64,000 bases of DNA from Escherichia coli (GTDB lineage Bacteria > Pseudomonadota > Gammaproteobacteria > Enterobacterales > Enterobacteriaceae). The stretch lies in NCBI RefSeq assembly GCF_045037415.1, contig NZ_CP173438.1; one strand, written 5' to 3'. The position numbers and the translations under genes are program-made. The notes beneath the pieces are model-generated. The model was given only the letters and a program-made list of their open reading frames with translations, was not told the origin of the DNA and did not search any database. Below are positions 45,420 to 45,633 of this stretch, in pieces (within the stretch, counting starts at the first letter, position 1; the number at the start of each line of letters is the position of its first letter).

Positions 45420-45496
45420 GCATCCGTAGCTCAGCTGGATAGAGTACTCGGCTACGAACCGAGCGGTCGGAGGTTCGAATCCTCCCGGATGCACCA
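45420..45496 (+). tRNA. argQ: tRNA-Arg (ACG)
   Basis: identical copy 4; gene name assigned by position only. Confidence 0.93.
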
Positions 45497-45611
45497 TATT
45501 CTCCGTAACCTTCAGCAATGAAGGTATCGAAGAGGTAGCGGTATTAACCGCAGGCACCAGGGAGGATAACGTTGCGCCAGCAGCGGCCCGAAGGGCGAAC
45601 GCCAGTGAGTC

Positions 45612-45633
45612 ATCCTCCCGGATGCACCATATT
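45612..45633 (+). repeat. 22-bp direct repeat of tRNA-Arg 3' end (tRNA fragment)
   Basis: atcctcccggatgcaccatatt identical to 45479-45500 (3' end of last tRNA-Arg plus 4 nt). Confidence 0.8.

What the first reader, a model, noticed from the sequence alone, without database searches (positions are those of the whole stretch)
45479..45633. Direct repeat of the tRNA-Arg 3' end about 110 bp downstream of the tRNA array
The last 18 nt of tRNA-Arg plus 4 flanking nt are duplicated exactly (45479-45500 and 45612-45633). tRNA 3'-end duplications are the classic signature of site-specific integration and excision at tRNA genes, yet only about 110 bp lie between the copies. This looks like a vestigial att-type scar, or a product of recombination among the four identical tandem tRNA-Arg units.
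Basis: seen in the sequence. Interest (0 to 1): 0.35.

Follow-up and report, generated by a model that had tools for sequence, protein, structure and literature searches.

The report
RtT-like element after tRNA-Arg genes
The repeated tRNA-Arg tail is real, but it is the built-in end of a small, conserved, structured RNA element (a relative of E. coli RtT RNA) that sits behind tRNA and 5S rRNA genes. It is not the scar of a virus or island integration.

Summary
The 22-nt exact repeat (45479-45500 and 45612-45633) is confirmed. The second copy is not an isolated scar. It is the 3' terminus of a 133-nt module (45497-45629) that follows the last tRNA-Arg(ACG) gene of the E. coli serV-arg array.

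The 3' half of the module matches a covariance model built only from non-Arg relatives at 58 bits (E about 1e-18). Those relatives are Rfam RtT-type elements behind tRNA-Tyr, tRNA-Lys, tRNA-Pro and 5S rRNA genes. In 69 of 78 surveyed tRNA-linked copies, the element ends in an exact or one-mismatch 18-nt copy of the 3' end of whichever tRNA lies upstream.

In the predicted fold, the copy is the 3' strand of a closing helix that mimics the tRNA acceptor/T-stem minihelix and leaves an ACCA tail. This fold is supported by covariation. By analogy with RtT RNA, whose annotated 3' end is the duplicated CCA, I infer co-transcription and release by tRNA-processing nucleases.

E. coli genomes carry 2-5 tRNA-Arg genes and 0-4 full elements at varying positions, which points to unequal recombination.

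No phage, integrase or island was found. The element is a variant of a known family and of moderate interest.

The parts
44904..44996 (+). tRNA-Ser(GCU), first gene of the array (serV equivalent)
   Evidence: ARAGORN; Rfam tRNA
45000..45356 (+). Three identical tRNA-Arg(ACG) genes (45000-45076, 45141-45217, 45280-45356) separated by short 62-64 nt spacers. These spacers hold no element in this strain.
45420..45496 (+). Fourth tRNA-Arg(ACG) gene (argQ equivalent). Its last 18 nt form repeat copy 1.
45479..45500 (+). Repeat copy 1: tRNA positions 59-76 plus the trailer TATT
45497..45629 (+). RtT-like tRNA-linked element, short form, 133 nt, from the first base after the tRNA to the A of the duplicated CCA
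   Evidence: Rfam RF00391 gives 23.5-25.4 bits, below the gathering score of 45. The fold has MFE -56.2 kcal/mol and z -5.0. Orthologous copies occur in 7 genera.
45508..45525 (+). Hairpin H1 (CCUUCAG/UGAAGG type). The sequence varies between genera but the pairing is kept.
   Evidence: helix 1: 3 pairs with changes on both sides
45538..45551 (+). Hairpin H2 (GCGGU-AUUA-ACCGC)
   Evidence: helix 2: 4 pairs with changes on both sides
45554..45567 (+). 5' strand of closing helix P1, GCACCAGGGAGGAU. It is 12/14 identical to the tRNA-Arg acceptor 5' strand (GCAUCCG) fused to the T-stem 5' strand (GGAGG) plus AU.
   Evidence: read directly from the sequence
45564..45629 (+). Conserved core plus terminal copy, matched by covariance model R1, which was built only from Tyr-, Lys-, Pro- and 5S-linked relatives
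   Evidence: 58.4 bits, E 9.6e-19
45570..45606 (+). Core hairpins: H3 CGUUGC-loop-GCAGCG (45570-45585), H4 GCCC-GAA-GGGC (45586-45596), and a short H5 (45599-45606)
   Evidence: H3 and H4 are almost invariant and H5 covaries.
45612..45633 (+). Repeat copy 2. Positions 45612-45625 form the 3' strand of P1, 45626-45629 are the unpaired ACCA tail, and 45630-45633 are the trailer TATT.
45736..45759 (+). Weak terminator-like hairpin plus T-run. It is the only such site on the + strand between the array and yqaB. Whether it ends the tRNA operon transcript is not known.
   Evidence: consensus match only
45777..46343 (+). yqaB (sugar phosphatase), the downstream neighbour. It is not part of the element and marks the conserved right flank.

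Best explanation
The second copy of the tRNA-Arg 3' end is the terminal segment of a 133-nt RtT-like tRNA-linked element (45497-45629).

Anatomy:
- Two variable 5' hairpins.
- A closing helix P1.
- A conserved three-hairpin core: CGUUGC/GCAACG, GCCC-GAA-GGGC, and a variable hairpin.
- P1 pairs GCACCAGGGAGGAU with the duplicated AUCCUCCCGGAUGC and leaves ACCA unpaired. P1 is therefore a copy of the tRNA-Arg acceptor/T-stem minihelix in which the T-loop is replaced by the core.

Shown here:
- Homology to RtT-type elements.
- The rule that each copy ends in the 3' end of its own upstream stable RNA.
- The covariation-supported fold.
- The copy-number polymorphism.

Inferred:
- The element is transcribed as the trailer of the serV-arg operon.
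- It is cut out by the enzymes that mature the tRNA. RNase E-type cuts would fall in the A/U-rich trailers after each CCA, and 3' exonucleases would trim back to the helix plus ACCA. RNase P might also cut 5' of 45554, giving a 76-nt minihelix RNA.
- The result would be a stable CCA-ended RNA like RtT.
- At the DNA level, the duplicated tail and the tandem tRNA genes act as homology patches for unequal crossing-over. This adds, moves or precisely deletes the unit without damaging the tRNA.

The cellular role of the RNA is unknown. For RtT, a modulating effect on the stringent response has been reported.
For: Homology:
- Rfam RtT aligns over its full model to 45504-45629.
- Model R1, trained without any Arg copies, scores 58.4 bits with E about 1e-18 at 45564-45629. 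The only other hit in 64 kb is noise inside an ORF.

Family rule:
- 118 family-like cores were recovered from public genomes.
- Of these, 78 have an upstream tRNA and a complete tail. 62 carry an exact 18-nt copy of that tRNA's 3' end and 7 carry a copy with one mismatch.
- The associated tRNAs are Tyr, Lys, Arg(ACG), Pro(UGG) and Pro(CGG). The copies follow species-specific tRNA variants.
- 5S-linked copies end in AACTGCCAGGCAT, the 3' end of 5S rRNA.

Bona fide membership elsewhere: the Arg(ACG)-linked copy in Yersinia nurmii passes the Rfam RtT gathering score at 70.8 bits.

Structure:
- The window RNA folds at -56.2 kcal/mol, z -5.0.
- In 12 Arg-linked copies from 7 genera, 95.7% of cells are paired and 12 pairs show changes on both sides. 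None of 500 shuffles reached these values. Slid controls gave 30-50% paired.
- Rfam's own RtT consensus also closes on the duplicated tRNA tail.

Processing analogy:
- The annotated K-12 rttR 3' end is the last A of the duplicated CCA, and its 5' end lies 7 nt after tyrV.
- RtT-family RNAs are described as released from tyrT and other tRNA operon transcripts, and were seen on Northern blots in Actinobacillus (PMC4986893).

Polymorphism:
- Arrangements seen: the window has A-A-A-A-E; K-12 has elements in spacers 1 and 3 and at the terminus; 23CRST017 has four elements; MBT-5 has none at the terminus; O104:H4 has two tRNAs; 366_BP0076 has five tRNAs.
- The terminal element is present in 4942 of 5425 genomes.
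Against: - The Rfam RtT score here (23.5-25.4 bits) is below the gathering score of 45. The 5' half of the RtT model (GAGAAcCUUCGa...GGUUCGA...AGCGAGA) is absent, so this is a divergent short form.
- No expression or end-mapping data for this locus were found. Co-transcription and processing are therefore inferences.
- About 9-20% of E. coli genomes lack the terminal copy, and the number of copies varies from strain to strain. Any function is therefore dispensable or dosage-tolerant.
- Much of P1's agreement with the tRNA could come from copying of tRNA sequence rather than from selection on the RNA. Only 3 P1 pairs show changes on both sides.
Confidence: 0.8

Rival explanations
1. Vestigial att site. 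An integrative element once inserted into the T-loop/3' end of tRNA-Arg, duplicated the tRNA tail as attL/attR, and was then deleted down to about 110 bp.
For: The geometry fits. The identity block starts in the T-loop (position 59) and runs past the CCA, as at T-loop-type tRNA att sites (established knowledge of tRNA integration sites; sequence). The unit can be lost precisely between the repeats, as in MBT-5.
Against: - No real phage match to the 111-nt interior. The single hit is a mis-filed Salmonella chromosome contig. Most of the 'plasmid' hits are records hundreds of kb to several Mb long, probably mislabelled chromosome sequence; two short Klebsiella records were not examined.
- No integrase or island at the site in sampled E. 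coli. The only insertion seen was an IS1/IS3 insertion further downstream in one strain.
- The same core sits behind four other tRNA species and 5S rRNA, always with the matching tail and always within one to three repeat units of the gene.
- Copies also lie between tandem tRNA genes.
- The interior is a covarying RNA structure.
Confidence: 0.04
2. Passive by-product of unequal recombination or slippage among the four identical tandem tRNA-Arg units, with no element of its own.
For: The array is highly plastic in E. coli, with 2-5 tRNA genes and 0-4 full elements at any of the four positions. Truncated forms have been made by a GCACCA microhomology deletion.
Against: Recombination among tRNA units cannot create the 111-nt non-tRNA interior. 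That interior is homologous to elements at unlinked loci (tyrT, the Lys, Pro and 5S loci) and in other genera. It also shows compensatory changes.
Confidence: 0.08
3. Decaying tRNA-Arg pseudogene. It would be a former fifth gene copy that lost its D and anticodon arms and acquired an insertion in the T-loop. It would now be neutral DNA, kept similar to the tRNA by gene conversion.
For: The P1 5' strand is 12/14 identical to the acceptor 5' strand plus the T-stem 5' strand. The Yersinia long form still carries the anticodon-stem, variable-loop and T-arm sequence of tRNA-Arg ahead of the core. In E. coli, Rfam RtT hits on the Lys-linked copies extend into the tRNA body.
Against: - Neutral decay does not predict an almost invariant core across Enterobacterales and across tRNA types.
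- It does not predict compensatory changes in H1, H2, H5 and P1.
- It does not predict 5S-linked versions whose closing helix is not copied from 5S helix I.
- This idea explains the origin and is compatible with the best explanation.
Confidence: 0.15
4. Intrinsic terminator or attenuator of the serV-arg operon.
For: The element is strongly structured and lies at the 3' end of the operon. Some Lys-linked relatives are followed by a clear terminator.
Against: No T-run follows P1 or any internal hairpin here. The scan finds no terminator-like site in 45497-45633. In relatives the terminator is a separate hairpin downstream of the copy. Elements also lie between tRNA genes that must be co-transcribed (K-12).
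Confidence: 0.03

Closest known systems
RtT RNA / rttR and the 178-bp tyrT repeats of E. coli (Rfam RF00391)
   Same: - It lies directly downstream of a tRNA gene on the same strand.
- The core hairpins are homologous (CGUUGC/GCAACG, GCCCGAAGGGC).
- It ends in a copy of the upstream tRNA's last 18-19 nt, which forms the 3' strand of the closing helix.
- It occurs in variable tandem numbers.

   Different: - It lacks the 5' module of about 45 nt found in RtT (GAGAAcCUUCGa..GGUUCGA..GAGCGnAGCGAGA) and has two unrelated hairpins instead.
- It scores 23-25 bits against a gathering score of 45.
- The tail is tRNA-Arg, not tRNA-Tyr.
- It has no counterpart of the small tpr ORF.
- No RNA product has been shown.
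AaHKsRNA22 (Rfam RF02902, Aggregatibacter sRNA 22)
   Same: The same core order: small hairpin, GAACGUUG hairpin, GCCC-GAA-GGGC, GA, variable hairpin, GAGUA. This is visible in the sub-threshold alignments to Dickeya repeats and 5S-linked elements.
   Different: No hit to the window element at E<=10. The context in Aggregatibacter was not examined. The relationship is at the level of the core motif only.
tRNA-gene attachment sites of integrases (T-loop class, for example P4-type attB in tRNA 3' ends)
   Same: A direct repeat of the tRNA segment from the T-loop to beyond the CCA.
   Different: There is no integrase, island or phage homology. The repeat is part of a conserved RNA structure found at many stable-RNA genes.
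tRNA acceptor/T-arm minihelix mimics (for example the tRNA-like domain of tmRNA) and tRNA-trailer sRNAs such as 3'ETS-leuZ
   Same: It has a coaxial acceptor-plus-T-stem helix with an NCCA tail. It is located in a tRNA operon spacer or trailer that processing could release.
   Different: The T-loop is replaced by a three-hairpin insert. No evidence of aminoacylation, Hfq binding or sponge activity was obtained. The comparison rests on general knowledge, not on a test made here.

Membership tests
RtT RNA (Rfam RF00391) | Score at or above the curated gathering threshold (45 bits) | tested here: not met
   23.5 bits (E 0.15 over 2.5 kb) and 25.4 bits (E 0.004 over 211 nt). The K-12 Arg copies are also not called at gathering.
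RtT RNA (Rfam RF00391) | Conserved core hairpins followed by GAGUNAUCC | tested here: met
   Model R1, built from Tyr-, Lys-, Pro- and 5S-linked copies only, scores 58.4 bits with E about 1e-18 at 45564-45629.
RtT RNA (Rfam RF00391) | Closing helix whose 3' strand is a copy of the upstream tRNA's 3' end, with an unpaired CCA-containing tail | tested here: met
   P1 has 13 pairs that are 96% paired in 12 sequences, with an ACCA tail. The Rfam consensus has the same arrangement.
RtT RNA (Rfam RF00391) | 5' module of the model (positions about 24-66, GAGAAcCUUCGa..AGGUUCGAgucgAGCGaAGcgAGA) | tested here: not met
   This module is absent from the window and from all short-form Arg copies. The 5' part of the model is skipped in the alignment. 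It is present in the Yersinia Arg-linked copy.
RtT RNA (Rfam RF00391) | Position directly 3' of a tRNA gene, on the same strand, within the operon | tested here: met
   The element starts at the first base after tRNA-Arg 45420-45496.
RtT RNA (Rfam RF00391) | Released as a discrete RNA by processing of the tRNA operon transcript | not testable with these tools
   Only an analogy is available: the rttR ends and statements in the literature.
Integrase attachment-site remnant (attL/attR at a tRNA gene) | Integrase gene or island DNA between or next to the repeats, in this or related genomes | tested here: not met
   The neighbours are csrA and yqaB. No island was seen in about 110 sampled E. coli genomes, and only an IS1/IS3 insertion lies further downstream in KTa005.
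Integrase attachment-site remnant (attL/attR at a tRNA gene) | Homology of the DNA between the repeats to phage or ICE sequence (attP arms) | tested here: not met
   No genuine phage record matches 45501-45611. IMG/VR matches to the core are either chance matches in unrelated sequence or copies of the element family itself. No arm-type repeats occur within the 111 nt.
Integrase attachment-site remnant (attL/attR at a tRNA gene) | Direct repeat that starts in the T-loop or anticodon loop and runs to the tRNA 3' end | tested here: met
   The repeat begins at tRNA position 59. The same feature defines RtT-type elements, so it does not discriminate.
tRNA gene or pseudogene | Cloverleaf recognised by tRNA detectors | tested here: not met
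   Neither ARAGORN nor Rfam tRNA calls anything in 45497-45633. Only acceptor and T-stem strands are recognisable.

The most novel reading that the evidence does not exclude
RtT-type modules may form one broad class of 'stable-RNA tail mimics'. In this reading a conserved three-hairpin core is closed by a helix built on a copy of the 3' end of whatever stable RNA gene lies upstream: tRNA-Tyr, Lys, Arg, Pro, or 5S rRNA. The module would borrow that RNA's 3'-end maturation and stability, and its tail would stay matched to its host gene. Such CCA-ended minihelix RNAs could act as decoys or sensors for factors that read uncharged tRNA ends, such as processing exonucleases, the CCA-adding enzyme or RelA. 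Alternatively, the core could be a small non-autonomous element that spreads between stable-RNA genes.
Probability: 0.25. Interest if true: 0.65.

Novelty: new variant of a known kind. Interest (0 to 1): 0.4.

Why it matters
For annotation: short direct repeats of tRNA 3' ends are routinely read as integration scars. This case shows a second, common source of such repeats in enterobacteria, and island-finding pipelines should exclude it.

For biology: the E. coli Arg-linked copies fall below Rfam's threshold and are not annotated in RefSeq. Yet they belong to a family whose members are excised from tRNA transcripts and have been linked to the stringent response.

Across the family, each copy carries the tail of its own host gene, including 5S rRNA. 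This pattern gives a concrete and testable hypothesis for how these RNAs are made, namely by mimicry of the host RNA's terminal helix. It also explains why tRNA arrays carrying them vary so much in copy number between strains.

Tried and rejected
- Phage and plasmid BLAST of the 111-nt interior. There were no real phage hits. Most of the plasmid hits are very long records that look like mislabelled chromosome sequence; two short Klebsiella records were not examined.
- IMG/VR scan with the core 19-mer. Most hits are chance matches in GC-rich coding sequence. Three contigs carry family elements (L008, L018, L019); I did not check whether these lie in host flank.
- Literature searches for argQ repeats, sRNAs near argQ/yqaB, RF00391 and 'tRNA-linked repeat'. 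Nothing was found on this locus, and one search was swamped by Rett-syndrome papers. Bösl & Kersten 1991 is not held.
- A test for type-specific 5' complements across all tRNA types, allowing G-U pairs. It did not discriminate, because the tails share ATCCT and the upstream window includes the tRNA itself. I dropped it in favour of covariation on the Arg subfamily.
- Counting element-less genomes by query coverage. This failed because the tool joined the two pieces, so I used row spans as a sample instead.
- ORFs in the element. Only 32-33 aa ORFs without support, and nothing like tpr.
- A terminator role. There is no T-run.
- A second R1 hit at 38149-38202. It lies antisense inside a 406-aa ORF and lacks H4 and H5, so it is noise.

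Full report
**Observation**

The window region 44300-46400 is the E. coli csrA / serV / four tRNA-Arg(ACG) / yqaB locus. It is 100% identical to several E. coli chromosomes. The 22-mer ATCCTCCCGGATGCACCATATT occurs exactly twice, at 45479-45500 and at 45612-45633. The three upstream tRNA-Arg genes match it with two mismatches in the trailer. The first 18 nt are positions 59-76 of the tRNA, running from the T-loop to the CCA. The four extra trailer bases are specific to this strain, because in K-12 the exact repeat at this place is 19 nt.

**What lies between the copies**

A permissive Rfam scan aligns the whole RtT model (RF00391) to 45504-45629, but at only 23.5-25.4 bits against a gathering score of 45. 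The agreement is concentrated in the 3' half: CGUUGC-loop-GCAACG, GCCCGAAGGGCGA, a short hairpin, and GAGUNAUCC. The RtT consensus ends in the tRNA-Tyr tail, whereas here the tail is that of tRNA-Arg.

Reading the K-12 tyrT locus shows the same layout. Each 178-bp repeat, and also the tyrT-tyrV spacer, ends in AATCCTTCCCCCACCACCA. The annotated rttR RNA starts 7 nt after tyrV and ends on the last A of the first duplicated CCA.

**Survey of other genomes**

I scanned one genome per species with the core 19-mer GCARCGRCCCGAAGGGYGA.

- After removing chance matches in GC-rich genomes, 118 family-like cores remain.
- They come from Enterobacterales, from Gilliamella and Zophobihabitans, and from a few marine gammaproteobacteria (Marinobacterium, Amphritea).
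- Of these, 78 have an upstream tRNA and a complete tail. In 62 the 18 nt after the core are an exact copy of the 3' end of that tRNA, and in 7 more there is one mismatch.
- The tRNAs are Tyr(GUA), Lys(UUU), Arg(ACG), Pro(UGG) and Pro(CGG). Two Arg(CCG)-linked copies with degenerate tails occur in marine genera.
- Species-specific variants of the tRNA tail are followed by the copy. Examples are Hafnia and Yersinia tRNA-Arg (ATCTTCCTGGGTGC) and the tRNA-Tyr variant with G.
- All tRNA-linked copies lie within one to three repeat units of their gene. None is separated from it by an island.
- Many cores without an upstream tRNA follow 5S rRNA genes instead. They end in AACTGCCAGGCAT, the 3' end of 5S rRNA, plus its trailer.

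The duplicated tail is therefore a constant design feature of a family. It is not something peculiar to argQ.

**Test of homology**

I built a covariance model from 37 Tyr-, Lys-, Pro- and 5S-linked copies, with no Arg copy included. It finds 45564-45629 at 58.4 bits, E about 1e-18. The only other hit in the 64-kb window is a 14.5-bit match antisense inside an ORF. The E-values from this shortened calibration are rough, but the margin is very large.

Rfam itself calls long-form copies behind Pro, Lys and Tyr genes, and behind tRNA-Arg(ACG) in Yersinia nurmii at 70.8 bits. The E. coli Arg copies are a short form that lacks the 5' module of the model.

**Structure**

The window element folds at -56.2 kcal/mol, against a shuffle mean of -37.9 (z -5.0).

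I aligned twelve Arg-linked short-form copies from Escherichia, Enterobacter, Kosakonia, Phytobacter, Citrobacter, Pluralibacter, Brenneria and Hafnia. They give one consensus with the following parts:

- hairpins H1 and H2, whose sequences differ between genera while the pairing is kept;
- a 13-pair closing helix P1;
- the nearly invariant H3 and H4;
- a covarying H5.

On this structure 95.7% of cells pair and 12 pairs show changes on both sides. None of 500 shuffles reaches the observed values, and sliding the partners by 1-3 columns drops pairing to 30-50%.

P1 pairs GCACC-A-GGGAGGAU (45554-45567) with AUCCUCCC-GG-A-UGC (45612-45625) and leaves ACCA free. The 5' strand is 12/14 identical to the tRNA-Arg acceptor 5' strand joined to the T-stem 5' strand. 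P1 is therefore the tRNA's acceptor/T-stem minihelix with the T-loop replaced by the core. The 76-nt stretch 45554-45629 folds this way on its own.

Two kinds of change in P1 were seen. The Hafnia changes match its tRNA. A degenerate Citrobacter copy has two adjacent compensatory pairs that do not match its tRNA. Rfam's RtT consensus closes on the duplicated tail in the same way. The 5S-linked copies do so too, with GGCAGUU/AACUGCC.

**Population genetics in E. coli**

The terminal element, together with its tRNA and flank, is present at 80% coverage or more in 4942 of 5425 complete genomes. In an evenly spaced sample of 24 genomes, 19 have it, 3 lack it precisely, 1 has a truncated form and 1 matched only part of the query.

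Fourteen inspected arrays show the following range:

| Strain | Arrangement |
|---|---|
| window | Four tRNAs, one terminal element |
| K-12 | Elements in spacers 1 and 3 and at the terminus |
| 23CRST017 | Four elements |
| SCPM-O-B-8794 | Two elements |
| MBT-5, 96_1414B | No terminal element |
| O104:H4 | Only two tRNA-Arg genes |
| an APEC strain | Three tRNA-Arg genes |
| 366_BP0076 | Five tRNA-Arg genes |

Truncated forms in strains 7/2 and PRO_A fit a deletion between two GCACCA words, one in the P1 5' strand and one in the tail. This is the signature of unequal crossing-over and slippage among tandem repeats.

**The att hypothesis**

- The 111-nt interior has no genuine phage match.
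- Most plasmid hits are very long records that look like mislabelled chromosome sequence.
- There are no arm-type repeats in the interior.
- The neighbours are csrA and yqaB, and no sampled genome has an island here. One strain has IS1/IS3 inserted further downstream.

Together with the family rule above, the att reading is left with very little support.

**Mechanism**

Shown:
- homology to RtT-type elements;
- the matching tail;
- the minihelix-like closing helix;
- the plasticity of the array.

Inferred:
- The element is part of the operon transcript. No terminator-like site lies between the tRNA and the copy, and internal copies sit between tRNA genes.
- Nucleases that mature tRNA 3' ends cut in the A/U-rich trailers after both CCAs and trim to the helix. 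This would release a CCA-ended RNA of about 126-133 nt, like RtT.
- RNase P might also cut at the base of P1 to give a tRNA-sized 76-nt RNA.

RtT-family RNAs are described as released from tyrT and other tRNA operon transcripts and as modulating the stringent response. They were seen on Northern blots in Actinobacillus (PMC4986893; bioRxiv 10.1101/2024.07.17.603846). I found no data for the Arg locus itself. The strain-to-strain variation shows that the element is not essential.

**Comparison and novelty**

The closest known relative is RtT/rttR with the tyrT 178-bp repeats. A more distant relative of the core is Rfam AaHKsRNA22.

The window element fails two defining features of RF00391, the gathering score and the 5' module, and meets the others. 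I therefore class it as a new variant of a known kind rather than as a member.

The duplication of the tRNA tail in the tyrT repeats is classical knowledge. I state this from memory (Egan & Landy 1978; Bösl & Kersten 1991) and did not verify it here. Whether the generality of the rule, and especially the 5S-linked copies, has been described I could not establish from the library.

Noticed in passing
L030 82-219, L102 299-437, L084, L086, L087, L094, L105, L120 (E. coli SCPM-O-B-8794), L132-L134: The same core follows 5S rRNA genes in many Enterobacterales, for example between 5S and tRNA-Thr or tRNA-Asp. There it ends in an exact copy of the 5S 3' end AACTGCCAGGCAT plus trailer, closed by a GGCAGUU/AACUGCC helix. 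Rfam does not call these copies at gathering (RtT 27.9 bits).
   Followed up: partly
L067-L070 (Dickeya oryzae, four copies), L012 (IMG/VR contig), L099/L100 (Pectobacterium tandem units): The core hairpin set (GCAGCG/GCAACG, GCCCGAAGGGC, GA, hairpin, GAGUAA) also occurs in repeated units with no tRNA or 5S gene nearby. The Dickeya units give sub-threshold hits to Rfam AaHKsRNA22 (about 31 bits). What these units are is unexplained.
   Followed up: partly
L149 1001-1420 (E. coli TOP10, NZ_CP080620.1): The array is broken. After one tRNA-Arg and one element comes a chimeric gene, with a tRNA-Arg 5' part joined at ...CCGAGCG|TCAGGTG... to a tRNA-Leu 3' part. It is followed by yjjZ-fhuF, which implies a chromosomal rearrangement between two tRNA loci.
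   Followed up: no
L003 6264-8150 (E. coli KTa005): An IS1 copy, itself interrupted by an IS3-family element, is inserted between the terminal element and yqaB. This is the only large insertion seen at this locus.
   Followed up: no
L144-L148, L151 (E. coli genomes): The number of tRNA-Arg(ACG) genes in this array varies from 2 (O104:H4 2011C-3493) to 5 (366_BP0076) among complete genomes. This could affect tRNA-Arg2 dosage.
   Followed up: partly
L002 1419-1520 and 1598-1807; also L148, L151, L147: Recurrent truncated variants occur: a 102-nt spacer and a 210-nt terminal gap. The latter fits a deletion between two GCACCA words, one in the P1 5' strand and one in the duplicated tail.
   Followed up: partly
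Alignment A2, columns 7 and 27 (flanking hairpin H3): The purines on either side of H3 vary together across tRNA types, either G...A or A...G. This suggests a non-Watson-Crick contact or linkage by descent.
   Followed up: no
L019 about 4570-4720 (IMG/VR contig, minus strand): A Tyr-type element is truncated at its 5' side (...cattttgc|agcgagagagcgttgcc...) and abuts unrelated sequence. This may be an insertion or rearrangement breakpoint inside an RtT repeat.
   Followed up: no
window 38149-38202 (-): A weak hit of the custom model R1 (14.5 bits, E 0.007). It lies antisense inside a 406-aa ORF and lacks hairpins H4 and H5, so I judged it noise.
   Followed up: yes
window 45000-45494 (-): Sub-threshold Rfam hits (Plastid-ycf2, HPnc0260 and others) lie antisense to the tRNA genes. 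They are artefacts of tRNA-like sequence in those models.
   Followed up: no
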